Source of the DNA: a virus
Taxonomy: Duplodnaviria > Heunggongvirae > Uroviricota > Caudoviricetes
Length of the DNA: 14,025 nucleotides
Direction: 5' to 3' (one strand)
Virus record (IMG/VR): IMGVR_UViG_2600255005_000005
A program made the position numbers and the translations under genes. Below are positions 1-14,025 of the stretch, piece by piece. The notes beneath the pieces are model-generated. The model ran no database searches. It was not told where the DNA came from and saw nothing but the letters and a program-made list of their open reading frames with translations. The stretch's first letter is position 1; the number at the start of each line of letters is the position of its first letter.

Positions 1-1479
1 ATGCTGGAAACCGCCTTTCAGGGCGTGAATGCGGTTATTGGCAGTATCAGCAATCTGTTCAGAGATGATGACGAACCGCCAGCGGCGGAGTATATCGCGG
101 AAGGCGCTCGGGATGTGCGTATCAACAGCCAGCCGGCGGCACGCAGCGGGGCACGCTGTACCTGTGAGGCCCGGGTGGTGAATGAGCCGGGGGACGGGGC
201 GTTTGTGTCACCGGATGTCCGCATTGGGGGGTCGTTACTGGTGGTCAGGGATATCAGAAGCGGCAGGTCGCAGATAACCCTGGTGGCAACCGTGGCGCTG
301 ATGTTTCTCCGCCCGGGCAAAATGCTTTCTAAAATCGCCTGTTTTGCTGCCGGTGTCGGGATGAGCATGATAACACAGAAGGCCATCAGCGCCCTTCCAC
401 ATCCGGTCAACGCCGCCACCGGAGCCAAATATCTGGCGGATGACGACGATTTCGACTTCAGCCTGCCGGGTCACTTTCCGCTGGACTGGCAGCGTGTGTA
501 CAGCAGTCGTGACGAGCGCACGGATGGGATGTTCGGTCAGGGCTGGAGTGTGATGTATGAAGTGAGCCTCGAGCGCACACCGGGTAACGCGGACGAAAAC
601 TGCATGACCTTTGTGTCGGGTATGGGGCGACGCCTGGATATGGAAGCCGTGCTGCCGGGGAGCGGGTTTTACAGTCCCGGTGAAGGACTGGCAGTACGGC
701 GTGGTGAGCAGGGGCACTGGCTTATCAGCAGCGATGATGGACAGTTTTTTCTGTTTGAAGCCGACCCGCATCACCCGCAGCGCCAGCGGCTGAAAATGCT
801 GGGCGACCGTAACAGCAACTGTCTGAATCTGTACCACGACGAGCTGGGGCGCATCACGCAAATCAGTGGTGAACAGCGGCGTCCGTGCATCCGTCTGCAT
901 TACGACCTGGCGGCGCATCCCCGTCGGGTGACGCAGATTTATCAGCATTTCCCTGATACTGCACCTTTACTGCTGCGTCGTTACAGTTATGACGCCGCCG
1001 GGCAGCTGACCGGCGTGTACGACAGTACCGGCCACCTGCTGCGCGAGTTTGCCTACAACGATAATCACTGCATGACCCTGCACCGCCAGCCGGGCGGCGA
1101 GGGATATTATTATCAGTGGGGCTGGTATGACGGTCCGGATGACGCAGCGTGGCGGGTGACGGGGCACCACACGGACAGCGGTGAACAGTACCGGCTGGCG
1201 TGGAACCTGGCGGCGCGCAGGCTGTGCGTGACGGACGGTCTGGGGCGCACGCGTTATCATCAGTGGGATGCGCAGAACCAGGTGACGGCGTACCGGGACG
1301 AGGCCGGGCAGGTGATGACGTTCCGCTGGAGCGACGAAGAACGGCTGCTGCTGGGGATGACCGATGCTCAGGGCGGCAGATGGCGCTATGTGTATGACCG
1401 TCAGGGGCATATCACGGAGACGCACGACCCCAGCCACACCAGTGCTATAGCGGGATATCCAGACTGCATGAGCAATTGA
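1..1479 (+). CDS. Rhs-family (YD-repeat) protein, N-terminal fragment with PAAR-like region and hydrophobic segment; truncated relative to full-length Rhs (~1400 aa); 5' end may lie outside the window
   Basis: GC-rich ORF running from the window edge. Contains the Rhs N-terminal signature (LPGHFPLDWQRVYSS...GMFGQGWSV, compare RhsA LPGPLPFILSRTYSS...GVFGPGW) and YD repeats (YDAAGQLTGVYDSTGHL, YVYDRQGHITETHDP). Upstream are a QPAAR motif and a hydrophobic stretch (ITLVATVALMFL...IACFAAGVGMSMI). The last ~13 codons look non-Rhs. Confidence 0.7.
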   Translation: MLETAFQGVNAVIGSISNLFRDDDEPPAAEYIAEGARDVRINSQPAARSGARCTCEARVVNEPGDGAFVSPDVRIGGSLLVVRDIRSGRSQITLVATVALMFLRPGKMLSKIACFAAGVGMSMITQKAISALPHPVNAATGAKYLADDDDFDFSLPGHFPLDWQRVYSSRDERTDGMFGQGWSVMYEVSLERTPGNADENCMTFVSGMGRRLDMEAVLPGSGFYSPGEGLAVRRGEQGHWLISSDDGQFFLFEADPHHPQRQRLKMLGDRNSNCLNLYHDELGRITQISGEQRRPCIRLHYDLAAHPRRVTQIYQHFPDTAPLLLRRYSYDAAGQLTGVYDSTGHLLREFAYNDNHCMTLHRQPGGEGYYYQWGWYDGPDDAAWRVTGHHTDSGEQYRLAWNLAARRLCVTDGLGRTRYHQWDAQNQVTAYRDEAGQVMTFRWSDEERLLLGMTDAQGGRWRYVYDRQGHITETHDPSHTSAIAGYPDCMSN

Positions 1480-1495
1480 TTCATCACGCAGCCGT

Positions 1496-2902
1496 TCATT
1501 CACGGTTTGCATCATTGATTTCCATCAGCATTACACTCTGATTTTTTAATTCATCGATCACTTCCTCTGGACGGGAATCCTGATCGATAAATTTCAACGC
1601 CTGCAACACCCGAACCGCATCAATCTGACGTATATCACCGCCCTGACGCAATGACTGAACAGCCAGCGCGGAGGATGAGTCAAACACCTGGGCAGATACA
1701 TCCAGTTCAGTGCGCACATCCACATTGCCACCGCAACTCTCTCCGCTCCATTCCGCCATTATCTGGAGAATATTATCGAGGGCATCTTCGAGGGAGTTCG
1801 CCATTGTATAAAGCGGCGAGTGTTCCTGCATCCGCTCTTCATTAGTCTGATCAACAGATTTGGTGGATGTATTTTCAGCCCGCAGAAGTTTAGCGCCGGC
1901 ATGACGCATCTGATTTTCCAGCTTCTCAAGTGATGTTTCGCCAGATTCTATCGCTGCGCCACTATGTTCAACATATTCGAGGCCATTTTTTGTTCTGTCC
2001 TCAAAAATCGTAGCGGTGGATGCACCAACCGTCAGTTCTTCATTCCTGTCCAGCCCGTAGGCCACCAGCAATGGAACGCGGGCAACATGAAGAATATTGT
2101 CCTGCTCGCTCTGGCTTTGCCAGTGCTTGATATTCAGCAAGCCAAGATTAAGCAATGGCGGTGTACCACGCATAAACCCTGTTTTCTTCGTATACAGTGT
2201 TACCAGAGGAATATCATCACGGCTGGTATTCCATGACTCATGAAGCATCCAGACAGATTCGCCATTAGTACCTTCGCTGCGTCGATAAATTTCTACTCGA
2301 CGGGGCATAATATGGCGGATCTGCTCCACCTTCTTCTGCCCGAAATCATCACCATCAATAATGATGACCTCTTTTATACGCAAATCAGTGAGAACAACTT
2401 TCCCTTTTTCAACTTTCGATTTCCATCCAATAACCTGGCGTGGATTCAGCATCGTAACGTACGGGCGACCACCGGCCGCGTTTTCATCGGCTTTTGTCCG
2501 AATCTCGTTCATATCCGTTCGTGGATAGTCCACCAGCGCATGTGCCACACCATACTGAAATGCGAGACTGAAAAATTGCTGCGCCCACACATCCAGTCGG
2601 CTCCCCTCCATGTCGATATTTTCTGCATATTCCCTGATTTTTTCCGGCGTTTCCTCACTCAATACTGTCGGCTCTGCAAATATTCGCCCAATATTTTGTT
2701 TGATGCTTTCTTCATACACAGGAAGTAGCGTAGCCACAGACAGGCGTTTTTTATAAGCGTCTTCATCTTCATTAGGCCATTTGGGGAGATAATTTTCCCC
2801 CTGCCTGCGCATTTCAAGCGTACCGCCCATCAGTGCGTCGTTAATATCCCACGCCTCCAGCATATCGTTATAGTCGAGGTTGGGTGTTGATATATCAGCC
2901 AT
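1496..2902 (-). CDS. putative phage portal protein (called by position immediately downstream of terL)
   Basis: 468-aa acidic protein. ATG at 2902 lies 2 nt after the terL stop (2905-2907). Gene order terS-terL-third gene is the canonical place for portal. No diagnostic motif recognised. Confidence 0.45.
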   Translation of the reverse strand: MADISTPNLDYNDMLEAWDINDALMGGTLEMRRQGENYLPKWPNEDEDAYKKRLSVATLLPVYEESIKQNIGRIFAEPTVLSEETPEKIREYAENIDMEGSRLDVWAQQFFSLAFQYGVAHALVDYPRTDMNEIRTKADENAAGGRPYVTMLNPRQVIGWKSKVEKGKVVLTDLRIKEVIIIDGDDFGQKKVEQIRHIMPRRVEIYRRSEGTNGESVWMLHESWNTSRDDIPLVTLYTKKTGFMRGTPPLLNLGLLNIKHWQSQSEQDNILHVARVPLLVAYGLDRNEELTVGASTATIFEDRTKNGLEYVEHSGAAIESGETSLEKLENQMRHAGAKLLRAENTSTKSVDQTNEERMQEHSPLYTMANSLEDALDNILQIMAEWSGESCGGNVDVRTELDVSAQVFDSSSALAVQSLRQGGDIRQIDAVRVLQALKFIDQDSRPEEVIDELKNQSVMLMEINDANRE

Positions 2903-2904
2903 AA

Positions 2905-4215
2905 TTAAATCCGAAGTGATGTGACTCTTCCGGTCGGTTTGACAATAGGGAATTGCTTAACGATGAAATAACCTCCGGCATCATTCGGGTGATCATTGCC
3001 AGATTTTTTATCAGGCTCCCCCTTATCATCCCAGACCTGTTGCTCCAGAGATTCGGCATATACCGGACAACGCTTCACATTAACTTTATAGCGACGCTCA
3101 CCATTGGCATTGCAGAACATTGCATTCATTGAGTTAACGCGATCTTTTACTGGCGGGTTCGAGCTGTTCACCACAACGTTAAAACCTGCCTGCTTAAGCT
3201 GGGCTATATCCGTCGTACTTGCGTTACTTGATTTTCTGGAATCTCCGGAAGCATCTGGATAAATATAAATCTCCCTCACTTTCCGGTAATCATGCCCGTC
3301 ATACGGCCAGAAGCGTTCTTTAATGATGCGGATCATATCCGGCGTATCGTAGGCATTGATGATTTCAGTTACCGCACATGGAAGCCCCAAACGCAGCACA
3401 TGGACGATTCCCGCCATCTTTCCAACGTTAAAATCCATCCCAATATAAATCGGCTCCCCTGGCTGCTCCACTTCTTCGCAATTATTCAGTTTCCGGTCAA
3501 ACTGATGGTAAACAGTACCACTTGTCAGGTTAGTAAACTGTCCTCGCAGATAGGCTTTAATCAGCTCTGGAGGGTATGATTCAAGAAGCGAAGGAATGTA
3601 ATCTGCTGGCAGGTTCTTTTCATTATCGAAAGTAGATGCCTGCACCAGACCATACAGTGAGGCCAGCTCTGTTTTTTCACGCACGGCTTTAACAAACTGC
3701 TCGTAGACAAATTTGAATCCTTCCGGCGTGGTTGTAACGTCAATACCGTTGCGAAGTCCATCAATCTTATAACGCATACGCGCAATTATCTTGCGCCACG
3801 CCGTTCTGGCTTTTTCCTTCGGCAAAATGTCCAGTTCATCCACCAACGCATTACCAATTTTGAAACCGACGATCGTTTGTGGCTTCTCCATCGATCTGCA
3901 GATAGTGGTTCCCCGATACTGGCGTCCGTAATAAAAGTGAACCTCTTTATTTCCCTCATTAATTTTTACGTTCAATCCCCAGTCAGCAGCAACTTCTTCC
4001 ACTGTAGGGTAAAAAATATCGCGAATTTGGGGATACGTTGGCGCAAAATATCCCTGATTTATACCTGGATGCTCCCAAATCCCCTTGCATATGCCGCCAC
4101 ACCCAACCCATGTTTTGCCCGAGCCAAAACCAGCAATATAGGCTTTAAATTTATGGGGCATTGAAAGAAATCGCGCCTGAGGCACATTAAGCGTCGGAGA
4201 GATCATCTTCATCAC
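2905..4215 (-). CDS. terminase large subunit (ATPase/nuclease)
   Basis: Walker A AGFGSGKT and Walker B-like LVDELD, with a C-terminal acidic nuclease-like region (IYIGMDFN, YIYPDASGD). Start is ambiguous among ATGs at 4215, 4212 and 4206; AAGGAG precedes them and favours 4212. Overlaps the terS 3' end. Confidence 0.85.
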   Translation of the reverse strand: MMKMISPTLNVPQARFLSMPHKFKAYIAGFGSGKTWVGCGGICKGIWEHPGINQGYFAPTYPQIRDIFYPTVEEVAADWGLNVKINEGNKEVHFYYGRQYRGTTICRSMEKPQTIVGFKIGNALVDELDILPKEKARTAWRKIIARMRYKIDGLRNGIDVTTTPEGFKFVYEQFVKAVREKTELASLYGLVQASTFDNEKNLPADYIPSLLESYPPELIKAYLRGQFTNLTSGTVYHQFDRKLNNCEEVEQPGEPIYIGMDFNVGKMAGIVHVLRLGLPCAVTEIINAYDTPDMIRIIKERFWPYDGHDYRKVREIYIYPDASGDSRKSSNASTTDIAQLKQAGFNVVVNSSNPPVKDRVNSMNAMFCNANGERRYKVNVKRCPVYAESLEQQVWDDKGEPDKKSGNDHPNDAGGYFIVKQFPIVKPTGRVTSLRI

Positions 4216-5281
4216 TCCTTACTCTGGCATCAACCACATTAATATTGATCGCCACAGGCTGGGGATGTTCATTATCTTCCACCGTTTCGATCTCTTTGCG
4301 CAGCTTCTGGTTTTCCATTCTGCGCCGTTCAATTTCCAGTTCCTGTAGCCGCTTATCTGCACATAAAGCCCCGCCAGCAGAAAGCAAACGCAACAATTCA
4401 CGCCGGGCGGCAGCCTTATCCTCCAGCAGGATCTCAACGCCGAATTTTCCGAATTTTGCCCCTGCATATAATTGCCGCGCATCCCCATCAAGCAGAGTGG
4501 TATCAGCCATATAAAGCTGTCCCGTTCCCTCACCGCAGCACTTCGGGCAGTCCGGATTGGGTATGGCGTTATCAACAAAGCCGAGGCCTCCATATTCCGG
4601 TTCGGGTTTGCCATCTCTGGAAGCCTGCGCCGCTGCCTTGTCGAATTCTGCTATATCGCGCCACTGGTAGAGATGATTCTCGCCCCAGCAATAACGGCAG
4701 TTAACACGGCGAAATTGTGCAAGCTGATTGGGGTCGGCCAGGACAATGGCCATCAACTGACTCACTAGTAAATCCAGGTCTGCGGTATAGCGTTTCTGGT
4801 ACTGATTGCGGAAGTAGCTGATAGCGCGAAAAACCCTGGCATTTCTAAGCATACGACTGGCGTTGCTGTTAGCTGTCGCACCTTGCCCCTCATAACCGGC
4901 TAGTCGGTACGCCTCTGTCGGCTTTTTACCCTGAGCAACAAGCATCGCAAACTTAGCCTGCTGGTCAGAAATGCCGAATTCATCGGGACAGAACGAAAAT
5001 TCCTCCGCGTCGCCCTCATTCAGGCCCGCATCGAATACTGGCTTTTTTTCCTGAGATTTTTCGTTCCGCTTTTGTGCAGTCTGCGTAGATTTTTTCTGCG
5101 CACTTTTTTGCGCAGTTTTGCGCATTTCTGTCTGCGCATTTTTCGGAGTTTTTTTGATGTAACGACGGGCTGTTGCGTAATTCAGTCCCCTTGCTTCACA
5201 CCATGCCACCGGAGATATACCGGAGCGGGTGTATTCAGCAATATACTCCTGCTGCAACGCCCCCCAGTCCGGTCTGCTCAT
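4187..5281 (-). CDS. terminase small subunit-like DNA-binding protein (unusually long, 364 aa)
   Basis: N-terminal HTH-like region (GISPVAWCEARGLNYATARRYIKK), a Lys/Gln-rich low-complexity linker, a terminase-small-like segment (KKPTEAYRLAGYEGQGATANSNASRMLRNARV), a Cys cluster (CRYCW...CPKCCGEG) and a C-terminal coiled-coil-like tail. Sits immediately upstream of terL with overlap. Confidence 0.6.
   Translation of the reverse strand: MSRPDWGALQQEYIAEYTRSGISPVAWCEARGLNYATARRYIKKTPKNAQTEMRKTAQKSAQKKSTQTAQKRNEKSQEKKPVFDAGLNEGDAEEFSFCPDEFGISDQQAKFAMLVAQGKKPTEAYRLAGYEGQGATANSNASRMLRNARVFRAISYFRNQYQKRYTADLDLLVSQLMAIVLADPNQLAQFRRVNCRYCWGENHLYQWRDIAEFDKAAAQASRDGKPEPEYGGLGFVDNAIPNPDCPKCCGEGTGQLYMADTTLLDGDARQLYAGAKFGKFGVEILLEDKAAARRELLRLLSAGGALCADKRLQELEIERRRMENQKLRKEIETVEDNEHPQPVAININVVDARVRSDEDDLSDA
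5073..5138. repeat. phased array of palindromic hexamers TGCGCA (4 perfect plus TGTGCA and TGCGTA), each followed by a T-tract, at ~10-14 bp spacing inside terS
   Basis: Read directly: tgtgca(5073), tgcgta(5082), tgcgca(5097), tgcgca(5109), tgcgca(5119), tgcgca(5133). Confidence 0.6.
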
Positions 5282-5284
5282 CAG

Positions 5285-5536
5285 TTAGTCCTGATTTTTA
5301 TCCACCCTGAGTAGTTCGCGCAGAGCAAAGGCATCCCCTTTTCTGGCAAGCTTAAACAATGCCGCTCGTAACTCGGCTTCACCTTTCGCTCTGCCCTTAC
5401 GGATGGCCGCATAAAAATCTGTCATTGCTTCCCGATTTTCTTTCAGTCGGTTCAGATCAACATCCAGAACGTCAGCGATTTGTTGTGCAGTCATCCGGCA
5501 CGCTGCCAGAGACTCGACTTTCGAATACGGAATCAT
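5285..5536 (-). CDS. hypothetical small protein (83 aa), possible DNA-binding helper of packaging
   Basis: ATG at 5536 preceded by GGGGTGA. Stop lies 3 nt before the terS start. Basic, helical composition. Confidence 0.45.
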   Translation of the reverse strand: MIPYSKVESLAACRMTAQQIADVLDVDLNRLKENREAMTDFYAAIRKGRAKGEAELRAALFKLARKGDAFALRELLRVDKNQD

Positions 5537-6404
5537 TTGTCACCCCCATTGATATGCAGGGTGTCTTCTTCCTGTATTTTTCGTGAAGGATTTTTACTGC
5601 AGCGTTGTTCCAGGTGACCTGATGGTGAATGCGTTTATGGCTGGCACCCATCAGTGAAATTTTTACGCACGACGGCGCATACATGACGGAGTAAAAACTT
5701 TTAACGTAGGTTCCGGAATCCAGATACAGCTCGGTCATTCCGCCGCTGTTTTTCTGCGTCTGTTTCTGCCCTAACTGGACAGCACCGATCGTCATAAACA
5801 ATTCACCACAGCGACCGAGATTCGTGTACGTATTCACATCCTCGTTAATGCGCCCCATGAATGAGAACGGTCGATCAACCGAACAGATAAAGCTGTTCAT
5901 TGCCTTGCGTTTCACCCACGAAGCATGGCCGCCATTGTCACCAAGAAAATCCCCGCCCTGCGACATAGCGATGGAAAGAGCAGGTATTGATTCGTAGTAC
6001 GCCAGCATTTCAGAAAGGATCGCATCCAGTTTCCTTATCGGAAAATAGGCCTGGTCATAGTTGCGATCCACCCGAAACTGGAACTCGTGATAATCATCAT
6101 CGAGCTGAATGAAGTATTTACACCCGACCAGTTTTGCCAAGTCGAAACAGGCATTACGGGCGTAAAAAATTGAGCGGCGGTCACAGAAATTATCGGCTTC
6201 GTCAAAACGACTGGCGATATCGGCTTTGGAAAACACCAGCACCTGTTCACCAAATTCAGCCATGTACTGATGCCGTGTCTTATCTTCATCATCAACAACG
6301 ATAAAAATTTTCCCGGTATAGCCAGCACGACGCAACGTCCGGTAAGTCAGAACTTTGTCCGGTCGCCCGTGAGTCAGAATAAAGGCGCAAAAATCATCAC
6401 GCAT
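5472..6404 (-). CDS. hypothetical protein with GT-A-fold glycosyltransferase-like motifs (soluble, ~310 aa)
   Basis: Ordered motifs FILTHGRPD, IFIVVDDED and FIQLDDDYHEF (DxD), with no hydrophobic TM segment. Preferred start is the ATG at 6404 (MRDDF), which overlaps the ParB-like stop as ATGCGTGA and is preceded by GGAGGAGGA; the longest ORF would start at 6425. Confidence 0.5.
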   Translation of the reverse strand: MRDDFCAFILTHGRPDKVLTYRTLRRAGYTGKIFIVVDDEDKTRHQYMAEFGEQVLVFSKADIASRFDEADNFCDRRSIFYARNACFDLAKLVGCKYFIQLDDDYHEFQFRVDRNYDQAYFPIRKLDAILSEMLAYYESIPALSIAMSQGGDFLGDNGGHASWVKRKAMNSFICSVDRPFSFMGRINEDVNTYTNLGRCGELFMTIGAVQLGQKQTQKNSGGMTELYLDSGTYVKSFYSVMYAPSCVKISLMGASHKRIHHQVTWNNAAVKILHEKYRKKTPCISMGVTNDSVFESRVSGSVPDDCTTNR

Positions 6405-7188
6405 ATTCCTCCTCCTCACCACCATGCATGATCTCCACCATGCGCTGCGTCATCCGGACAAATCCATTTTCAATAGCCTGCTGATAATCAATGATCACCA
6501 GCGCCGACTCCTCGAAAAAACACTGAATTTCAGCGGGGGCGTGAGCGTAATAGTCCGCAATTCTGCTGAAATTAAACACCGTGTGACGTTCTGCCGCACA
6601 CAGGAGGAATTTCTCAATATCAGGCTCAAGGGAAGCCAAACGTATCCGGCTGATCAGCTCCTGCGTTTTCGTATCGTCGTACAGTTCACTGATATCCGGT
6701 TTACCGCCCGACGGCTCATAAACAGGCGTATCAATTTTCGTCGTATACGGCTCCTCCTCATTTCCTGTACCGGGCAAAACATCCGTCAACAGTTCATCAA
6801 TTTCTGTCGGGATGAAGCCTGTCAGGGAGACATCAAAATCAGCATTGATTAGGTCCGACAGCTCCATCCGCAACAGATCTTCATCCCAGCCAGCATTCAT
6901 CGGCAGGCGATTATCTGCCAGGCGGTACGCCTTTTTCTGCTCATCCGTCAGGCCAGACAGAACAATGACCGGAACAGAATCCATTTTGAGCATTTCAGCC
7001 GCCATAACACGACCGTGACCCGCAATAATTTCGCCCTTTTCGTCAATCAGCACCGGATTAGTCCAGCCGAATTGCTTAATACTTTCTACCAGTTGTGCCA
7101 CCTGCTCAGGGCTGTGCGTCCTGGCGTTGTGCGCATACGGTGACAATTCTTGTAATGGGCGATAGACTATCTTTAATTTCTCGCTCAT
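6397..7188 (-). CDS. ParB-like nuclease domain protein
   Basis: ParB/Srx N-terminal signature (NPVLIDEKGEIIAGHGRVMAA) followed by an acidic C-terminal half. ATG at 7188 with AAGGA just upstream. Confidence 0.75.
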   Translation of the reverse strand: MSEKLKIVYRPLQELSPYAHNARTHSPEQVAQLVESIKQFGWTNPVLIDEKGEIIAGHGRVMAAEMLKMDSVPVIVLSGLTDEQKKAYRLADNRLPMNAGWDEDLLRMELSDLINADFDVSLTGFIPTEIDELLTDVLPGTGNEEEPYTTKIDTPVYEPSGGKPDISELYDDTKTQELISRIRLASLEPDIEKFLLCAAERHTVFNFSRIADYYAHAPAEIQCFFEESALVIIDYQQAIENGFVRMTQRMVEIMHGGEEEEYA

Positions 7189-7202
7189 ACATCCTTGCTT
7201 TA

Positions 7203-7240
7203 TGAATAAAACGCACCCCAGCAGCCAGTGCTACTGGGGG
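7203..7240 (-). terminator. candidate intrinsic terminator downstream of trkG
   Basis: On the minus strand a ~10-bp stem hairpin (CCCCAGUAGC / GCUGCUGGGG, 4-nt loop) is followed by UGCGUUUUAUU. Confidence 0.4.
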
Positions 7241-7325
7241 CGGAGGTGTTGCTGGTAAAGTTAGGTATTGGATCAATGAGTGAGTCAACATAATATTAAA
7301 CTCACAATTATAAATCAGCCATATA

Positions 7326-8783
7326 TTAGGAGCGCCAAAAAAAACCTGAAAACAATATAATAACAGGATAAATTTCAAGGCGACCAAGAATCATAGCTAT
7401 GCACATTAAATATTTTGCAATGTCATTAAGCACTCCGAATGACGATGCAGTAGCCCCAAAACCTAATCCCATATTATTAATACATGCAGCCACTGTTGCA
7501 AATGATGTAAGAAAATCATATCCCATACCATTTAACACCAGTATAAAAAACACCGTGAAGAGAGTATAAAGAAAAAAGAAACTCCATACAGACCTCATTA
7601 CACGATCTGTAACTATCTTCCCTCCTACATTTACACTCAACAACGCTCTGGGATGAGAAAGCTGATTTATCTCGTGTTTGCTTTGTTTGAAAAGTATAAG
7701 AAATCGAAGTGACTTAATTCCACCACAAGTTGAACCTATACATCCCCCAAAGAAACTTGACAACAGCAAAAACACTATCGTGTGCGTGGGCCAGCTTGCA
7801 TAATCCTGCGTAGCTAAACCATTATCAGTGAGCATGGAGCTGGCAAGAAAAAACGAATGAATAAAACTTCCATGCAAGTCATACATACCTATATGCCAGA
7901 CCTGGAAAGAGGTAACAATGATCACCCCTAAGGCTATTAACAGAAAGAAACGAAGTTCAATATCTCTGATTAAAGGTTTTATCGTTTTCCTGCTAATAAC
8001 AATATACCAAAGAGTGAAGTTGAAAGCCGATAGCAGGGAAAAAGAACCAGCCACCAGCTCAACCAAATAGTTATTAAAATATCCGATACTCTCGCTATGA
8101 GTTGAGAAACCACCAAGCGAAACTGTGGAAATCCCGTGACAAATAGCATCAAACAAAGGCATTCCTGCAAGTCTATAACAGACAATACAAGCAATACCTA
8201 ATAAAGAATAAGTTATCCACAGTGTCCGTGACGTATCGGCCAGGCGGGGAGTGAGTTTGTCATCCTTAAATGGCCCCGGCATTTCTGACTGATAAAGCTT
8301 TGCACCACCAATACCCAATAATGGCAATACAGCAACCGCCAGAACAATAACTCCTAAACCACCTATAAAATTTAACTGTGACCGATAGTACAAATATGCC
8401 CGAGGTAATGAACTAACATCATCAATTACAGTTGCTCCTGTTGTTGTTATTCCAGAAACCCCTTCAAACAGAGCATCAATGAACGTTAAATTAAGTTCTG
8501 AGTCAATCCATAAAGGGAATGCACTAATAACAGAAAACAAAATCCAAAACATTACAATTATAATAAACCCATCACGGGTACGTAATTGAATGCCAGATTT
8601 CTTAGTTGTATACCACGCTCCGCCACCAATGCAAAAAAATATAACGAAAGTTATAAAGAAAACGAATAGGCTTTTTTCTTTATAAAACAATGCTACAACC
8701 ATTGGTGGCAACATTGAAAGACTATAGAGCCAAACCAGGAACCCACACATATGAGTAACAACTCTTACATGAGATGTATTCAT
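7326..8783 (-). CDS. trkG: TrkG-type potassium uptake protein (Trk/Ktr/HKT family membrane transporter), prophage moron
   Basis: Multi-pass membrane protein whose sequence matches what I recall of E. coli Rac-prophage TrkG (MNTSHVRVVTHMCGFLVWLYSLSMLPP...), with repeated pore-loop glycine motifs. Strongly AT-rich relative to its flanks. First ATG at 8783; an in-frame TTG at 8801 has AAGGTGG 6 nt upstream and is an alternative start. Confidence 0.9.
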   Translation of the reverse strand: MNTSHVRVVTHMCGFLVWLYSLSMLPPMVVALFYKEKSLFVFFITFVIFFCIGGGAWYTTKKSGIQLRTRDGFIIIVMFWILFSVISAFPLWIDSELNLTFIDALFEGVSGITTTGATVIDDVSSLPRAYLYYRSQLNFIGGLGVIVLAVAVLPLLGIGGAKLYQSEMPGPFKDDKLTPRLADTSRTLWITYSLLGIACIVCYRLAGMPLFDAICHGISTVSLGGFSTHSESIGYFNNYLVELVAGSFSLLSAFNFTLWYIVISRKTIKPLIRDIELRFFLLIALGVIIVTSFQVWHIGMYDLHGSFIHSFFLASSMLTDNGLATQDYASWPTHTIVFLLLSSFFGGCIGSTCGGIKSLRFLILFKQSKHEINQLSHPRALLSVNVGGKIVTDRVMRSVWSFFFLYTLFTVFFILVLNGMGYDFLTSFATVAACINNMGLGFGATASSFGVLNDIAKYLMCIAMILGRLEIYPVIILFSGFFWRS

Positions 8784-8920
8784 ATCTAAATATTCTTTCA
8801 ATTATAACCACCTTGCTGCAATATTATGATTATACTGTATAAAATTTAACTCCTCTTAGATCTTACTTCACTGTTCCTTATGAAACAATCATCAAAATGA
8901 ATCATATTGTAGTTAAGATT

Positions 8921-9385
8921 TTACTTTAAACACTGTTCGGTTATGTATTGCTGAGCACCTTCAAGTTGGGCCTGCATCATTACCAGTCGTTCCCGGAGGG
9001 TGAAATAATCCCGTTCAGCGGTGTCTGCCAGTCGGGGGGAGGCTGCATTATCCACGCCGGAGGCGGTGGTGGCTTCACGCACTGACTGACAGACTGCTTT
9101 GATGTGCAACCGACGACGACCAGCGGCAACATCATCACGCAGAGCATCATTTTCAGCTTTCGCATCAGCTAACTCCTTCGTGTATTTTGCATCGAGCGCA
9201 GCAACATCACGCTGACGCATCTGCATGTCAGTAATTGCCGCGTTCGCCAGCTTCAGTTCTCTGGCATTTTTGTCGCGCTGCTCTTTGTAGGCGGTGGCGT
9301 TATCACGGTAATGATTAACAGCCCATGACAGGCAGACGATGATGCAGATAACCAGAGCATAAATAATCGCGGCGACTCTGCTCAC
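8921..9385 (-). CDS. Rz-type i-spanin (lambda Rz-like)
   Basis: Near-identical over most of its length to lambda Rz as I recall it ([21 protein letters not shown]...[33 protein letters not shown]...). GTG start at 9385 overlaps the lysozyme TGA stop (GTGA); the longest ORF begins at a TTG at 9400. Confidence 0.85.
8980..9165 (-). CDS. Rz1-type o-spanin lipoprotein, embedded in the +1 frame of Rz
   Basis: Signal peptide plus lipobox (LPLVVVGC) and a proline-rich mature part ([24 protein letters not shown]), matching lambda Rz1. Lies entirely within Rz. Confidence 0.85.
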
Positions 9386-9921
9386 TGATCTATCCCCCAA
9401 CAGGCTAATGCGCTTTCCTGGTCACGACGAATAACCTGTCCATAGCAGTTATTTGAACGTATGCGGCAATCGCGCCCACCATCTTTTATCCACCAGCGAA
9501 TCGCCTCGCATGCACCCTTACGATCACCGGCATTCAGCCGCTTATAAAACGTCGACGGGAAACACTTACCGGGGCCAATGTTATAGGGACAAAATGACGC
9601 TATACCCGCTTTCTGTGGTTCGGTCAGTGGTACTTTAATATTGCGCTCCACCCATGCCAGCGCCTTATCACGTTCAATAGCGTTAACCTGGTCGCATTTT
9701 TCCTTCGACAGCCTCATTCCCGGTATGACGGGCTTACCATCCACCATTGTGGCACCACGACAGATGGTCCATATACCGGAACCATCGCGGTATGCCGTTG
9801 TGTGGTTACCTTCTTTTTCATCCAGAAACTGGTCGAGAATATCAGGCGCAGGCGCAGGCGCACCGACGGCAATCAGTGCCAGAACGGCAGCCGACAGGCC
9901 GTATCTGATTTTTGCGTTCAT
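9382..9921 (-). CDS. phage lysozyme (GH24-like), probably SAR-type endolysin, resembling Qin RrrQ/YdfQ
   Basis: Catalytic E-x8-D-x5-T arrangement ([18 protein letters not shown]). N-terminal weakly hydrophobic Ala/Gly-rich segment ([20 protein letters not shown]) fits a signal-arrest-release domain. Partnered with an S21-type pinholin. Confidence 0.85.
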
Positions 9922-9981
9922 GGATATTTATCAGGATTTATCGGTTTCTGAACCCTGGATATGTTTATCTGTCCCGGCCTG

Positions 9982-10012
9982 TTGAATCAGGCAAGGAATA
10001 GTTAAATACAAT
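9982..10012 (+). promoter_or_regulatory. candidate sigma70 promoter for the plus-strand 90-aa gene
   Basis: TTGAAT (9982-9987) and TACAAT (10007-10012) with a long 19-bp spacer, followed by SD AGAGAGGA and the ATG at 10027. Confidence 0.25.
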
Positions 10013-10026
10013 AGAGAGGATTGTTT

Positions 10027-10299
10027 ATGGACAATAGCACCATTTCTCTACAGGAGTTGCTCGACTGCATTTCCAAGCTTCGGGATGATGTAAATGCCCT
10101 TACTGTCGCATTTTCATATCTGGCATTCTCAATTCCCAAGGAACAAATGCAACCAACACTGGCATCGCTCCAGCTTGAATCACTCAACCCCAAATGGTCC
10201 CAGCAACAACAAAATTCTTTCAAGTGGCTGGCGGTATTACTGGAAGAAAAATATGCTGGTGAAATTACCATTTCGGCGGAGTCTTCAGTGAACCAGTAA
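10027..10299 (+). CDS. hypothetical protein (90 aa), antisense-oriented gene inserted inside the lysis cassette
   Basis: ATG at 10027 with SD AGAGAGGA 7 nt upstream; helical E/K/L-rich composition. Its 3' end overlaps the 3' end of the convergent 114-aa gene by 35 nt. The ORF track's 10021 start is a TTG. Confidence 0.5.
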   Translation: MDNSTISLQELLDCISKLRDDVNALTVAFSYLAFSIPKEQMQPTLASLQLESLNPKWSQQQQNSFKWLAVLLEEKYAGEITISAESSVNQ

Positions 10300-10609
10300 T
10301 TCTTCCCGGCAGTTTTCCTTTGTAGGTTATCCACACACCCTGCGCCTCTAAAATTATGGGGCGCTTTTCCGGTGACTGCTCATCCCCTTCACATAACCCT
10401 GCAGCAACATCCAGGAAGACCTGTCTGATGCTCCTTCTGGCTGCTGCCTCATAAAACTCCAGCGCGGCACCTTCAACACGGTCCAGCGAGATGTCCAGGT
10501 CTAAAATTTCACCGTCAAAGCGTTTTTTGTCCCGTAACGCTAAAGTTACCGTAACTTTATTCTCAAAATTGCGGATCCCTTTCACAATCAGTTCATAGTT
10601 TTGAGTCAT
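10265..10609 (-). CDS. hypothetical lysis-cassette protein (114 aa), in the position of Qin ydfR between holin and lysozyme
   Basis: ATG at 10609 lies 4 nt after the holin stop, with GGGGAGAG upstream, so it is translationally coupled to the holin. Soluble, charged protein. Confidence 0.6.
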   Translation of the reverse strand: MTQNYELIVKGIRNFENKVTVTLALRDKKRFDGEILDLDISLDRVEGAALEFYEAAARRSIRQVFLDVAAGLCEGDEQSPEKRPIILEAQGVWITYKGKLPGRITGSLKTPPKW

Positions 10610-10613
10610 TGAA

Positions 10614-10829
10614 TTACTCTCCCCGTGCAGCCTTACGCTTATCTTCTTTAATCTTGAAATAAAGATTTGTCAGATACGTCAACAGGCCAAACACCAGACT
10701 ACCCAGCACACCTATTGCTGCCCACTGTGAGGGCGTGACTCTATCGAGCAACTGTAAAAACCAGTAGCCAGCACTGCCTGCGGAGGTGCCATAGGCGACA
10801 CCTGTTGTTAACTTATCCATGGATTTCAT
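10614..10829 (-). CDS. class II holin (phage 21 S / EssQ-EssD type pinholin) with dual-start motif
   Basis: [71 protein letters not shown] closely matches S21 as I recall it: two TM segments, a Met1-Lys-Ser-Met4 dual start and a charged C-terminus. The upstream in-frame extension to 10922 is rejected. Confidence 0.85.
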
Positions 10830-11168
10830 AACCCCCACCTCGCAGATGCGGGCGCTGTGTAATGGAAACAAAAAATGGCCACCAGCGGCCCGTAAAAAAC
10901 ACCCCGTCAAAAGCACCGGCATCCGCAGATGCCCTTTGCGTGGCGTTATTTGATGCGCGCCAGGTGTGGCGCAAAGAAATGAAATAAGACTTATCGAAAA
11001 TTAAGGTTAATTTGATGATTTAAACCACTTCTGAAGCTTAGTAGTATGAACATGTCCCCAGAAGGGGCCAATACTTATTATTCTTCATGGACTTTGTCCC
11101 GCGGTCTTAATCCGACGACCGCGCTACTTTTCACCCTCTCGCAAATTGCTATCTAAAGGACGTTGTCC

Positions 11169-11201
11169 CACGAGTATTCCTGTATGCTCGTGTCTTTTTT
11201 T
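11169..11201 (+). terminator. candidate plus-strand intrinsic terminator
   Basis: CACGAG...CTCGTG stem with a long 12-nt loop, followed by TCTTTTTTTTG. Confidence 0.3.
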
Positions 11202-11212
11202 GTCCTGAGAAA

Positions 11213-11243
11213 GGAATAAAAAAAACCGCCAGATATGGCGGTT
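11213..11243 (-). terminator. strong minus-strand intrinsic terminator
   Basis: On the minus strand AACCGCCA-UAUC-UGGCGGUU (8-bp stem, 4-nt loop) followed by UUUUUUUUAUU. Confidence 0.55.
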
Positions 11244-11605
11244 GGTCAATGCAAGGGATGAATTTTTTAATTGTTATTAAACCGAGGCGTCGGGTGCCTC
11301 CCGAAGTATTCCGTGCTGCATGGATACTGTGGTTTCCCGCTAAACCGACTCTTTAAACCACCCTCGCACTGAGGAGCGCCTCTGTGGTGCTTTTACAACA
11401 CCAAAATGATGCATCACCGACCCTGCCAGGAAATACAAAATCTCCACCGATAATGCACCATTCTGCTGCCGTAAAAAATTAGCACTGAGGCTACACCCGG
11501 CCTCAAATCATAGCCAGAGAACAGAATGCTTTTTCAAAACAACCTGCTCCCACGTAATAAAAAAATACGCCAGTGCCGTAATACAATAAGGCTTGTTTTA
11601 AATGC

Positions 11606-11680
<75 letters not shown>

Positions 11681-11683
11681 ATA

Positions 11684-11759
<76 letters not shown>

Positions 11760-11777
11760 ATTGGTTCTTCAGGGGAG

Positions 11778-11803
11778 CGATATCACCGAGCGATATCACC
11801 GAG
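11778..11803. repeat. perfect tandem direct repeat, 2 x 13 bp (CGATATCACCGAG)
   Basis: Read directly; lies 18 nt upstream (transcript sense) of the tRNA-Thr 5' end. Confidence 0.6.
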
Positions 11804-12004
11804 CAAAGAAGAGTTCCCCCTCAGAACCGTTTTCGATGATACGATTTAATATTCCAATCGCAACAACACTTTGCGTCAAGCTATGTAAATTTATTTATGT
11901 ATTTTTATTTTATGTGAACATTTCACCTTCACTTAAAATATACGCGACAATATATAAACAAATTTATTTTGAAGGCAATATTAAATGTCGTTTCTTATAT
12001 CACA

Positions 12005-12040
12005 CCATAATAACAACAAAACCCGCTTGATGGCGGGTTC
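12005..12040 (-). terminator. candidate tR'-like intrinsic terminator downstream of the Q-like gene
   Basis: On the minus strand AACCCGC-CAUCAA-GCGGGUU followed by UUGUUGUUAUUAU, about 85-120 nt downstream of the Q-like stop. Confidence 0.45.
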
Positions 12041-12091
12041 TATTAAAGTTTAATTGCGCTTGATTCGCCTCGCGATACAGCTTTGCGAAGC

Positions 12092-12128
12092 GTAGCAAAA
12101 TTGAAGCAGTTTACGCGTAAAAAATCAA
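12092..12128 (-). promoter_or_regulatory. candidate late promoter (PR'-like) at the 3' end of the Q-like gene
   Basis: On the minus strand TTGATT, a 17-nt spacer, then TTCAAT. Weak hexamers; the call leans on the position between Q and the terminator. Confidence 0.2.
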
Positions 12129-12667
12129 GCCGTTTTTTGAGCGAATGATTCTCGCATGGGAATGTATAGCGCATACTCAGCAACGGCCAACCAATTAGCA
12201 ATTCGCTTTTCGCATGTGCTAAAACACCACTCTGGGTGTGCATCATTTAGCAATTCAGCCATTTTGCGTTTGGTCATCCCCCGCCCCTCATACCGTTGCC
12301 GAAGGACGCTAATCAATCCTGGATGCTCTGCCAGCACCTCACTTATGACCCGATCAATACATAACGCCTCTGCATCAGTACAATGCGCCAGCCAGCTCTT
12401 TTGCTTGCCGTTGATCATCTCTCTCAAAAACGCTTCCAGCTCAGCTTTCTCTATTCCCGCTTTTTTCATTCTGCGCAGGGCTTCATTGATGGCTGTTTTC
12501 GTCAATTTTTTGGATGCCAACAACTGATTGAACATATTTCCTGACCTGCCACCGCCAATATACGACCAGCGCCCCCACATACGCAGTTTGCCCTGAATCC
12601 AGACACTTTCCAGCGTGGCGAGACGAAGGTGTTCTCCGCTTTTTCCTGTATTCGTTGGGTAAATCAC
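12125..12667 (-). CDS. putative late antiterminator Q-like protein
   Basis: Last gene of the nin-like cluster, immediately upstream of the terminator/tRNA/lysis region. GTG start at 12667 overlaps the upstream TGA (GTGA) and has AAGGAGGG 7 nt upstream. Contains an N-terminal W-G-x-W motif and Cys residues. The longest ORF to 12787 would overlap the upstream gene by 124 nt. Confidence 0.5.
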   Translation of the reverse strand: MIYPTNTGKSGEHLRLATLESVWIQGKLRMWGRWSYIGGGRSGNMFNQLLASKKLTKTAINEALRRMKKAGIEKAELEAFLREMINGKQKSWLAHCTDAEALCIDRVISEVLAEHPGLISVLRQRYEGRGMTKRKMAELLNDAHPEWCFSTCEKRIANWLAVAEYALYIPMRESFAQKTA

Positions 12668-12954
12668 AAATATCCCTCCTTTCTCCAGATTTCTTGTGTG
12701 CGAAAAACACCTTCTGCATGCATCAGGCGTAATTCTTCTTTGGTGTAATCGCTGGTTTTTACCCGCCCGTCGATTAGATCGTGGCATGAGCTACAGGCAA
12801 TCGCCGCCTGCATATCGTGTGGTTTTGTCGCTATTCCGCACGTTCCCGCCAGTCGGTAATGCGCCAGCACAGACGTTTCCGGATCGTGATTGCAGTAGCC
12901 AGGAATTCTGACGGTGCACATCTGCCCCCGCGCCGCTTTACGTAAATCCACCAT
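12664..12954 (-). CDS. DUF1364-family protein (YbcO-like putative nuclease of lambdoid nin regions)
   Basis: 96 aa, MVDLRKAARGQMCTVRIPGYCNHDPETSVLAHYR...IACSSCHDLIDGR, with the conserved Cys pattern I recall for DLP12 YbcO. Its ATG overlaps the upstream stop (TAATG). Confidence 0.7.
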   Translation of the reverse strand: MVDLRKAARGQMCTVRIPGYCNHDPETSVLAHYRLAGTCGIATKPHDMQAAIACSSCHDLIDGRVKTSDYTKEELRLMHAEGVFRTQEIWRKEGYL

Positions 12955-13553
12955 TACGCAAACTCCAGCAGCTGCGCGGCCACATTTTCGACTTGTTCCG
13001 GAGAGGAAAATTTACGGAACAGAATCCAGTTCCACAGCACATTCAGAACAGATTTATAAACCTGCTGAAACTCGGTTTCGTCCATATTCGCAAAAGCGAT
13101 GGATTTCGCCCGACGCCCATGGCTACCGTCCGGATAAAAATGTTCGGTGTAAAATCCAGCCTGAATGGTTACCCACTCGCGAAAAGCCTCAAACGACTTT
13201 AGCAATGCCGTATCCCGAGTTCTGCGTGTCGCAACTGTATTCAGATATTGCTCTGCGGCATCACTCAGGGCTGGCGTGTGTTCCCGACCAACTGATTCGC
13301 ACAGGTAATCAACGAAACCAGACAGCAGTTCTCGTTCGCGAGGCGTGATCGCCCCACCGACCGGAGTCCAGTAATCGAATCCCAGTTGCAGGAGTTTGAA
13401 AAAACGCTTGTGGAATGCGTAGTTACGCACACGCTTAAAGTCTGCGTGTATCCACTCACCTATTTTGATTTGATGCAGAAAATCGCAACTCTCCGGCGTC
13501 GCCGGGAGAAGTAAACCAGAAGAGGTTTGTTTGACCAGTTGTATATGCGCCAT
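12954..13553 (-). CDS. lambdoid nin-region protein of unknown function (possibly DUF1367-like)
   Basis: 199-aa ORF with ATG at 13553, translationally coupled to the downstream DUF1364 gene. Family assignment is from memory of the sequence style (KRVRNYAFHKRFFKLLQLGF...) and is tentative. Confidence 0.6.
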   Translation of the reverse strand: MAHIQLVKQTSSGLLLPATPESCDFLHQIKIGEWIHADFKRVRNYAFHKRFFKLLQLGFDYWTPVGGAITPRERELLSGFVDYLCESVGREHTPALSDAAEQYLNTVATRRTRDTALLKSFEAFREWVTIQAGFYTEHFYPDGSHGRRAKSIAFANMDETEFQQVYKSVLNVLWNWILFRKFSSPEQVENVAAQLLEFA

Positions 13554-13828
13554 TTCTCAATCTCTCGATGGCGCAGTGCAGCAGATGCCAGTTGTTCAGG
13601 CTGACGTATAAAGTATAAATAAACTGGTTCCAGTGTAAAGCCCCCACATTGATGGAATAAAAATCAAACAATAGATTGCTGGGATAAAAATACAACGCTT
13701 ATTATTAAAAGCGGTTAGACAAATTAAATTTTAATGTTATGCAAATCTGCCAGATTAGCATAATATCTCATTTGAAAACCGCTGAAATAACAATCTTATC
13801 AGGATTAATCATATTAAGGTGAGTAAAT

Positions 13829-13915
13829 ATGGAAAACAACAAATCTGCACATTACGCTCCTTTTTTATCTATAATACTTTTTGTATTTTGTTGTGTATGG
13901 GCGGTATTTTTATAA
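13829..13915 (+). CDS. candidate small hydrophobic peptide (28 aa, MENNKSAHYAPFLSIILFVFCCVWAVFL)
   Basis: SD AGGTGA 5 nt upstream of the ATG. Polar N-terminus followed by one hydrophobic helix-length segment. TAA stop lies 15 nt before a perfect 14-bp inverted repeat. Below the ORF track's length cutoff. Confidence 0.3.
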   Translation: MENNKSAHYAPFLSIILFVFCCVWAVFL

Positions 13916-13930
13916 AACACACCCACAAAT

Positions 13931-13960
13931 AAATCAAACCCGCTACAGCGGGTTTGATTT
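13931..13960. terminator. perfect 14-bp inverted repeat (AAATCAAACCCGCT / AGCGGGTTTGATTT), candidate bidirectional terminator
   Basis: Read directly; the arms are separated by 2 nt and the flanks are AT-rich. Confidence 0.5.
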
Positions 13961-14025
13961 ATATAGTTGTTATACGGAAACTGGCACACGAGCAGGCAAT
14001 GGATAGTGAGCCCAGTTATTAGCAT

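What the first reader, a model, noticed from the sequence alone, without database searches (positions are those of the whole stretch)
1420..1515. Abrupt junction between a truncated Rhs gene and the prophage immediately after portal
The Rhs frame is recognisably Rhs up to about 1440 (YVYDRQGHITETHDP), then runs 13 unrelated codons to a stop at 1479, only 17 bp from the portal stop at 1496. In phage orientation a new ORF starts at 1515 (MMQTVNERLRDESIAHAVWISRY...), overlapping the portal stop as a downstream head gene would, but it runs into antisense Rhs sequence. The prophage therefore lacks capsid and tail genes and the Rhs lacks most of its core and toxin tip, consistent with one deletion or rearrangement fusing the two.
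Basis: partly seen in the sequence, partly recalled or inferred. Interest (0 to 1): 0.5.

Follow-up and report, generated by a model that had tools for sequence, protein, structure and literature searches.

The report
Rhs–prophage junction: likely assembly artefact
The sharp join between a cut-off Rhs toxin gene and a cut-off prophage is really in the sequence, but it is most likely a place where two draft-assembly contigs were pasted end to end, not a rearrangement that happened in the bacterium.

Summary
Window 1-1430 is the 5' part of a PAAR/DUF6531/RHS type VI effector gene, 99.86% identical to both Rhs copies of Escherichia ruysiae. Window 1431-14025 is the late, lysis and nin region of a Rac-type prophage on the minus strand, 99.7-100% identical to E. 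coli prophages. The 468-aa gene is a portal. The ORF starting at 1515 is the first 28 codons of the Mu-F-like minor head gene. The join at 1430|1431 is blunt: no microhomology, filler or IS remnant.

The biological reading is probably wrong. The window comes from AEMF01000001.1 (Escherichia sp. TW11588), a 4.46-Mb "contig" from an early draft project. Within about 16 kb of that record there are three blunt joins between segments from unrelated map positions: narGHJI-RtT | DcrB-Rhs 5' (2.8 kb) | phage piece (13.1 kb) | truncated ampG-yajG-bolA-tig-clpPX-lon. The first join falls exactly on the boundary of a 4.8-kb Rhs repeat and inside the RtT/tRNA-Tyr repeat region. Housekeeping genes nearby carry frameshifts, two of them beside homopolymer runs. 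Where both elements are intact in E. coli they are co-oriented, so a single deletion cannot give this convergent join.

Best explanation: contigs abutted without spacers (confidence about 0.8). Interest is low.

The parts
1..1430 (+). 5' fragment (codons 262-738) of a roughly 1550-aa PAAR/DUF6531/RHS-repeat type VI secretion effector gene. It is the right-hand part of a 2.76-kb DcrB-Rhs piece that begins 1334 nt upstream of the window.
   Evidence: Pfam DUF6531 at 2e-19, RHS_repeat at 2.7e-15, partial PAAR. 99.86% identical to both E. ruysiae Rhs loci L007 and L008. 93% identical to E. coli, with 73 of 96 differences at third codon positions.
1430..1431 (.). Blunt junction B between the Rhs piece and the phage piece: no shared bases, no filler, no IS end.
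   Evidence: Base-by-base three-way comparisons. The 30-mer spanning the junction is absent from genome, viral and metagenome collections, and no complete E. coli genome spans it.
1432..1479 (+). 15 out-of-context codons plus a stop, read in the Rhs frame from the antisense strand of the phage minor head gene. This is a by-product of the join, not a domain.
   Evidence: Translation. The DNA is 100% phage.
1431..1515 (-). First 28 codons (plus 1 nt) of the Phage_Mu_F / SPP1 gp7-type minor head (head morphogenesis) gene, overlapping the portal stop as in intact prophages.
   Evidence: The 28 N-terminal residues are identical to the Yu5 protein. The intact gene is annotated as a minor head protein, with PF04233 and PHROG 241.
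1496..2902 (-). Portal protein (468 aa), intact.
   Evidence: PHROG 145 portal at 4.5e-165. PDB portal proteins at 1.5e-17. DUF4055. Identical to WP_000763709.1 in E. coli prophages.
2905..4215 (-). Terminase large subunit.
   Evidence: Pfam Terminase_6N and Terminase_6C. PHROGs terminase large subunit.
4187..5281 (-). Terminase small subunit.
   Evidence: Pfam Terminase_2. PHROG 51.
5472..7188 (-). TAGT-type glycosyltransferase (5472-6404/6425) and ParB-like protein YnaK (6397-7188).
   Evidence: Pfam TAGT at 3.8e-35 and ParB_N. PHROG 842 and PHROG 620.
7326..8801 (-). trkG potassium transporter, the cargo gene that marks Rac-type prophages.
   Evidence: Pfam TrkH at 3.8e-144. Annotated trkG in the matching E. 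coli prophages.
8921..14025 (-). Lysis cassette (Rz, lysozyme, DUF1327, holin), tRNA-Gly and tRNA-Thr (11606-11759), Q-like DUF1133, YbcO, DUF1367 and a 57-aa ORF. The phage piece runs 509 nt past the window end to a third blunt join with ampG.
   Evidence: Gene calls and Pfam. tRNAs. Junction C.

Best explanation
The junction at 1430|1431 is a seam between two separately assembled contigs. They were written one after the other, without an N spacer, into a single pseudomolecule record: AEMF01000001.1, Escherichia sp. TW11588 (cryptic clade IV, now E. ruysiae). One contig is a 2.76-kb piece of the repeated DcrB-Rhs module. The other is a 13.1-kb piece of a Rac-type prophage. Their neighbours in the record are also unrelated contigs. 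The truncated Rhs, the truncated minor head gene and the 15-codon tail are therefore by-products of concatenation, not gene products of the organism. Shown: the exact seam, the identity of both sides, the source record, and two further seams close by. Inferred: that the cause is concatenation of contigs.
For: (1) Source. The 492-aa product of window 1-1476 occurs on exactly one contig in the collection: AEMF01000001.1 of GCA_000208585.2, 4,463,584 bp. Published tables assign AEMF to strain TW11588, clade IV / E. ruysiae. For the sister strain TW14182 the accession given is AEJZ01000533, so that assembly has at least 533 contigs. A 4.46-Mb gap-free contig from this early draft project is therefore not credible as a natural contig.

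(2) Three blunt joins in about 16 kb.
- Junction A, L024 8666/8667: narK-narGHJI-RtT joined to DcrB-Rhs.
- Junction B, window 1430/1431.
- Junction C, L030 9492/9493, 509 nt beyond the window end: the phage S8-peptidase gene at about codon 567 joined to ampG at about codon 171, followed by yajG-bolA-tig-clpP-clpX-lon-hupB-ppiD.
These blocks map at about 1.28 Mb, the rhs loci, 1.42 Mb and 0.45 Mb in E. coli K-12 (K-12 positions from my own knowledge).

(3) Junction A sits to the base on the left boundary of the 4.8-kb repeat shared by the two Rhs loci of E. ruysiae OPT1704. All three sequences converge at CGGCGATAGATATC. On its other side it lies inside RtT, next to the duplicated tRNA-Tyr genes. 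Assemblers break contigs at such places; recombination has no reason to.

(4) Low consensus quality. Four frameshifts appear in about 30 kb: Rhs (A7 versus A8), narH split, narJ fused to narI, lon split. The Rhs and lon shifts lie beside homopolymer runs.

(5) Every base is accounted for by one element or the other. There is no IS, no att site, no duplication and no microhomology.

(6) Orientation is wrong for a single deletion under the synteny seen in E. coli AR_0077.

(7) Weak hint: among nine Rac-like prophages, polymorphism against Yu5 starts within 10 nt of the seam (segment positions 693-708; the seam is at about 699), while the portal gene is almost invariant. A collapsed-repeat contig could end there.
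Against: There is no read-level evidence. I could not show that the missing halves lie elsewhere in the record: Rhs codons 739-1550, minor head codons 29-371 plus capsid and tail genes, the ampG 3' part, and tyrT-purU. The two searches aimed at this gave nothing usable. In the E. ruysiae reference the Rhs repeat continues 2 kb beyond the seam, so the Rhs contig end is not at a demonstrated repeat boundary. Junction C lies in single-copy ampG, so that contig end would have to be a coverage gap. The record is deposited as an ordinary contig. I found no paper that describes how it was built.
Confidence: 0.8

Rival explanations
1. Real chromosomal inversion in TW11588. Its end points lie in the minor head gene of a ttcA-site Rac-type prophage and in a co-oriented Rhs gene, joined by illegitimate blunt-end recombination. 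The reciprocal junction (the rest of the minor head gene facing the Rhs 3' part) would lie at the other end of the inverted segment.
For: An inversion is the only single event that gives a convergent Rhs-5' / portal-side join from the co-oriented arrangement seen in E. coli AR_0077. Both flanks are otherwise intact and near-identical to natural sequences.
Against: It explains only one of three blunt joins within 16 kb. The Rhs fragment is itself cut off from vgrG and its upstream context exactly at a repeat boundary and joined to narI-RtT. The phage fragment is cut again and joined to half of ampG. There is zero microhomology. The junction appears in no other genome or metagenome.
Confidence: 0.07
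2. Real single deletion, in a strain where the prophage lies next to and convergent with an Rhs locus. The deletion would remove the Rhs 3' part together with the phage head and tail genes.
For: Prophage decay and Rhs truncation are both common. K-12 Rac lacks its packaging and head genes and rhsE is a pseudogene (my own knowledge). The window alone is compatible with this reading.
Against: The matching prophages examined sit at ttcA, co-oriented with the rhsE-locus Rhs. The rhsC-locus copy has the same K-12 orientation. The Rhs fragment has no native upstream context in the record: narI-RtT is abutted at the repeat boundary. The other phage end is fused to ampG.
Confidence: 0.04
3. A different kind of artefact. 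A chimeric read or library molecule, or a wrong join made by the assembler or by a reference-guided scaffolder, produced this one false adjacency inside an otherwise genuine contig.
For: The blunt join with no shared sequence resembles a chimeric template. The consensus is of low quality.
Against: Three such joins within 16 kb, one exactly on a repeat boundary, are more simply explained by systematic end-to-end pasting of contigs. Graph assemblers misjoin through shared repeats, and there are none at 1430|1431.
Confidence: 0.09

Closest known systems
Pseudomolecule or concatenated-contig draft genome records (contigs joined without N spacers)
   Same: An implausibly long gap-free contig from an early draft project. 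Blunt joins between non-syntenic blocks. One join on a repeat boundary. Frameshifts in housekeeping genes, two beside homopolymer runs.
   Different: Not documented for this record in any paper I could read. The ordering rule for the pieces is unknown. Two of the six piece ends lie in sequence that is single-copy as far as can be seen.
Rac cryptic prophage of E. coli K-12 (ttcA site, carries trkG)
   Same: Same prophage type. Matching E. coli prophages have intR/xisR next to ttcA, recET, kilR, sieB, ydaSTUV, lysis genes, trkG, ynaK and ydaY. The window part is 99.7-100% identical to E. coli relatives.
   Different: K-12 Rac has a natural internal deletion that joins ynaK to ydaY and the tail genes (my own knowledge). 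Here terminase and portal are intact and the break is 28 codons into the minor head gene, against foreign DNA.
Rhs / PAAR-Rhs type VI secretion effectors (rhsC and T6SS-island loci of Escherichia), including natural Rhs pseudogenes such as K-12 rhsE
   Same: PAAR-like N-terminus, DUF6531, YD/RHS repeats, and a DcrB-family gene immediately upstream. The two E. ruysiae copies share 4.8 kb and differ only at the toxin tip.
   Different: The fragment stops at codon 738 of about 1550. It has no RHS core domain, no toxin and no immunity gene, and its upstream vgrG context is replaced by narI-RtT.

Membership tests
Contig-concatenation artefact (pseudomolecule) | Several blunt joins between blocks that are not neighbours in related closed genomes | tested here: met
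   Three joins in about 16 kb: nar-RtT | Rhs | Rac piece | ampG-lon block.
Contig-concatenation artefact (pseudomolecule) | Piece ends coincide with repeat boundaries | tested here: inconclusive
   Met for both sides of junction A: the exact edge of the 4.8-kb Rhs repeat, and RtT next to the duplicated tRNA-Tyr genes. Not shown for junction B, where there is only a hint from the onset of polymorphism. Not shown for junction C, which lies in ampG.
Contig-concatenation artefact (pseudomolecule) | The missing halves of the cut genes are present elsewhere in the same assembly | not testable with these tools
   The whole record cannot be fetched.
Contig-concatenation artefact (pseudomolecule) | No sequencing reads span the seam | not testable with these tools
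   No read data are available.
PAAR-Rhs type VI effector | N-terminal PAAR-like region, DUF6531 and RHS/YD repeats | tested here: met
   DUF6531 at 2e-19. RHS_repeat at 2.7e-15. The PAAR match is partial and just under the cut-off (26 versus 27 bits) because the window starts at codon 262.
PAAR-Rhs type VI effector | RHS-associated core domain followed by a C-terminal toxin, with an immunity gene downstream | tested here: not met
   The fragment ends at codon 738. The next sequence is phage. Intact orthologues run to 1550-1552 aa.
PAAR-Rhs type VI effector | Linked vgrG and DcrB-type adaptor upstream | tested here: inconclusive
   The DcrB gene is present at L024 8748-9200. vgrG is absent because of junction A. 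vgrG is present in the E. ruysiae T6SS-island copy and in E. coli AR_0077.
Rac-type lambdoid prophage | Colinear late, lysis and nin genes with the trkG cargo gene | tested here: met
   99.7% identity over 12.5 kb to E. coli Yu5. Gene order matches the ttcA-site prophages of Yu5 and AR_0077.
Rac-type lambdoid prophage | Integration at ttcA with intR/xisR, and a complete head and tail module | tested here: not met
   Neither end of the 13.1-kb piece reaches an att site. One end is cut in the minor head gene and the other in the S8-peptidase gene. This applies to the piece, not necessarily to the organism.
Phage portal protein | Portal-family sequence match, and position between the large terminase and the head morphogenesis gene | tested here: met
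   PHROG 145 at 4.5e-165. PDB portal proteins at 1.5e-17. Gene order TerS-TerL-portal-MuF.

The most novel reading that the evidence does not exclude
The join is real in strain TW11588. A blunt, homology-free illegitimate recombination, most simply an inversion, fused a recently acquired E. coli-type Rac prophage to a type VI Rhs effector gene. That event would inactivate both and create a 753-aa Rhs stump with a 15-residue phage-antisense tail.
Probability: 0.1. Interest if true: 0.2.

Novelty: not a real feature. Interest (0 to 1): 0.05.

Why it matters
Biologically it matters little. Practically it is a warning. AEMF01000001.1 (TW11588), a commonly used reference for cryptic clade IV / E. 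ruysiae, appears to be a spacer-free concatenation of contigs with homopolymer frameshifts. Gene truncations, odd adjacencies, "degraded prophages" and synteny breaks read from it should not be taken as biology. Scans of raw sequence will keep flagging such seams. A seam can be recognised by three signs: blunt ends, several joins close together, and coincidence with repeat boundaries.

Tried and rejected
- **Junction in other collections.** I searched for the 30-mer spanning the join in one genome per species, in IMG/VR and in JGI metagenomes. There were no matches. No complete E. coli genome spans it.
- **Truncated Rhs by protein search.** The search returned only hits at 96% identity or less, none covering more than 97% of the query, and not the source protein itself.
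- **Look-up through the ParB-like protein.** Too widespread: 1653 blocks, and the source was not among the 10 places shown.
- **Finding the missing Rhs 3' half in the source record.** I scanned for protein clusters whose longest contig is 4,463,584 bp. There were none.
- **Artificial concatenated query.** I joined the missing phage proteins (AAA, S8, minor head, DUF6651, capsid) into one query. Nothing scored.
- **Original genome paper.** Not held under the PMC id I recalled for it. Other papers give only strain and accession tables.
- **IS-mediated or site-specific event.** Considered and rejected, because every base belongs to Rhs or to phage and there are no repeats or IS ends.
- **The Rhs-like ORF as a phage tail or host-range gene.** Rejected, because it is 99.86% identical to chromosomal Rhs genes at the rhsC locus and in the T6SS island.
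- **Metagenomic chimera of E. coli and E. ruysiae.** Not needed, since the record is an isolate genome. The near-identity of the phage to E. coli phages remains noteworthy.
Full report
**What is in the window**

The plus strand of 1-1479 carries a 492-codon ORF with DUF6531, RHS repeats and a partial PAAR motif. On the minus strand lie these genes, in order:
- a 468-aa DUF4055 protein (1496-2902);
- large and small terminase subunits;
- a TAGT-type glycosyltransferase and a ParB-like protein;
- trkG;
- Rz, lysozyme and holin;
- two tRNA genes;
- Q-like, YbcO and DUF1367 genes.

The DUF4055 protein is a portal. It matches PHROG 145 at E 4.5e-165 and solved portal proteins at E 1.5e-17, and it sits between TerL and a Mu-F-type head morphogenesis gene in intact relatives.

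**Mapping the junction**

Against 5,426 complete E. coli genomes, window 1431-3000 matches prophages at up to 100% identity. The match always starts at 1431. No genome covers both sides. Window 1-1430 matches Rhs genes at 93% at best, and the match always ends at 1430. The closest prophage, in E. coli Yu5, is 99.7% identical over 12.5 kb. It is a full Rac-type prophage whose late end is followed by uspF-ompN-ldhA. In AR_0077 the same prophage type starts beside ttcA. In both, the gene after the portal is a 371-aa "phage minor head protein".

A three-way ungapped comparison shows the switch between 1430 and 1431 with no shared base and no inserted base. The same holds against the E. ruysiae Rhs reference. 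The ORF that starts at 1515 has its first 28 residues identical to the minor head protein and then reads antisense Rhs. The Rhs frame keeps Pro477, reads 15 foreign codons and stops at 1477-1479. GC content falls from 0.61 to 0.46 at the join.

**Origin of the Rhs side**

The 96 differences from the best E. coli allele are spread evenly, and 73 of them are at third codon positions. This is an orthologue from a diverged lineage, not a decayed copy. A scan of one genome per species found two loci in Escherichia ruysiae (NZ_CABVLQ010000001.1) that are 99.86% identical over 1-1430. They share a 4,836-bp DcrB-Rhs module at 99.8% and differ only at the toxin end. One lies at the rhsC locus (kdpDBA ... 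Rhs ... phr-dtpD-ybgI). The other lies in a T6SS island after tssM and a vgrG-sized ORF. Full length is 1550-1552 aa, and window position 1 is codon 262.

**Orientation argument**

In E. coli AR_0077 the intact Rac-type prophage and the intact homologous Rhs gene are on one chromosome. The minor head gene is at 1,303,280-1,304,392 on the plus strand. The Rhs gene is at 1,395,924-1,400,591, also on the plus strand. In the window the two are convergent. A single deletion between co-oriented genes cannot produce that. An inversion could.

**The source record and its context**

Looking up the 492-aa product found exactly one place: AEMF01000001.1 of GCA_000208585.2, a contig of 4,463,584 bp. Published tables assign AEMF to strain TW11588, cryptic clade IV, now E. 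ruysiae. For the sister strain TW14182 the accession given is AEJZ01000533, so that assembly has at least 533 contigs.

Ten kb to the left (L024) the record reads narK-narG-narH-narJ/I. Homology to E. coli narI-RtT runs to L024 8668. The DcrB-Rhs module starts at L024 8667, which is the exact left edge of the 4.8-kb repeat defined by the two E. ruysiae copies. All three sequences converge at CGGCGATAGATATC. On the nar side the break lies inside RtT, next to the duplicated tRNA-Tyr genes.

To the right (L030) the phage piece ends 509 nt beyond the window, inside the S8-peptidase gene that is intact in related prophages. There it abuts ampG at about codon 171. After ampG come yajG, bolA, tig, clpP, clpX, lon, hupB and ppiD.

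So within about 16 kb there are three blunt joins. They separate a nar block, a 2.76-kb Rhs piece, a 13.1-kb phage piece and an ampG-lon block. In K-12 these blocks lie at roughly 1.28 Mb, the rhs loci, 1.42 Mb and 0.45 Mb (K-12 positions from my own knowledge).

The same 30 kb contains four frameshifts:
- Rhs, A7 where both E. ruysiae copies have A8 (this is why the gene call, and the window, start at an internal ATG);
- narH, split in two;
- narJ, fused to narI;
- lon, split in two.

The Rhs and lon shifts lie beside homopolymer runs.

**Interpretation**

The simplest account is that the record is a spacer-free concatenation of draft contigs, and that 1430|1431 is one of its seams. The points in favour are:
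- the implausible contig length for this project;
- three blunt, non-syntenic joins close together;
- one join exactly on a repeat boundary on both of its sides;
- the poor consensus quality;
- the absence of any recombination signature;
- the wrong orientation for a simple deletion.

A weaker hint comes from nine Rac-like prophages. In them, differences from Yu5 begin within 10 nt of the seam, while the portal gene is nearly invariant. A collapsed-repeat contig could end at such a point.

The points against are these. I have no reads. I could not fetch the rest of the record to show that the missing halves are elsewhere. The Rhs piece ends 2 kb before the end of the reference repeat. Junction C lies in a single-copy gene.

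I put the concatenation artefact at about 0.8. Another kind of misjoin gets about 0.09. A real inversion gets about 0.07, and a real deletion about 0.04.

**Comparison with known things, and verdict**

Both elements are ordinary members of well-known kinds: a PAAR-Rhs type VI effector module and a Rac-type lambdoid prophage with trkG. Natural truncations of both exist, for example K-12 Rac and rhsE (my own knowledge). Even if the join were real, it would be a routine case of decay. As it stands it is most likely not a feature of the organism at all. Interest is low. The useful outcome is a caution about this reference record.

Noticed in passing
L024 8666/8667 (1334 nt left of window position 1) and L030 9492/9493 (509 nt beyond window position 14025): Two further blunt joins in the source record. 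The first is narI-RtT joined to the exact start of the DcrB-Rhs repeat. The second is the phage S8-peptidase gene joined to ampG at about codon 171. The 216-aa ampG gene call is a chimera that reads on into phage DNA.
   Followed up: yes
L024 about 9937-9944 (just left of window position 1); L024 6674-6686 and about 7700; L030 3447-3492: Frameshifts split Rhs (A7 versus A8), narH and lon, and fuse narJ to narI. The Rhs and lon shifts lie beside homopolymer runs. This indicates a high indel error rate in the record. The Rhs frameshift explains why the window starts at an internal ATG of Rhs.
   Followed up: partly
window 1431-14025 compared with window 1-1430 and L030 8900-9493: The prophage piece is 99.7-100% identical to E. 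coli prophages, whereas host DNA of the same record is only 89-94% identical to E. coli (ampG 89%, Rhs 93%, narI 94%). This suggests very recent cross-species spread of a Rac-type phage into E. ruysiae. Contamination of the draft with E. coli DNA is less likely but possible.
   Followed up: no
window 5472-7188 (-): A TET-associated-type glycosyltransferase (Pfam TAGT; PHROG beta-glucosyl-HMC-alpha-glucosyltransferase; called 'GREB1-related' by PGAP) overlaps a ParB-like gene (ynaK), just upstream of the terminase genes and next to trkG. It looks like a DNA-modification module, but no TET/JBP gene is in the window.
   Followed up: partly
window 11606-11680 and 11684-11759 (-): tRNA-Gly(UCC) and tRNA-Thr(UGU) genes lie between the Q-like gene and the holin. 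They are also present in the E. coli relatives.
   Followed up: partly
L007 8666-13501 and L008 8666-13501 (E. ruysiae NZ_CABVLQ010000001.1): Two DcrB-Rhs modules, 99.8% identical over 4.8 kb, lie about 506 kb apart at the rhsC locus and in a T6SS island. They diverge only in the last roughly 160 nt of the shared part and in the toxin tips. This is a clear case of Rhs tip replacement and a guaranteed assembly breaker.
   Followed up: partly
L025-L034 positions 6663-10056 (related prophages); L030 9492-10056: Related prophages carry an AAA ATPase (384 aa) and an S8 subtilase-like peptidase (754 aa) as a pair between the replication and nin genes. This may be a defence or accessory module. Only its last roughly 190 codons are in the TW11588 piece.
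   Followed up: no
L001 about 11992-12007, corresponding to window about 1422-1437: Across nine Rac-like prophages the portal gene is almost invariant, while SNPs against Yu5 begin within 10 nt of the seam position in the minor head gene. This is either a mosaic boundary or a coincidence.
   Followed up: partly
L005 18412-22746 (E. coli Yu5) compared with L002 8702-15885 (E. coli AR_0077): The ansP-yddH (rhsE) locus is a swappable T6SS cargo site. It holds PAAR, VgrG and an M35 metallopeptidase in Yu5, but VgrG, DcrB and PAAR-Rhs in AR_0077.
   Followed up: no
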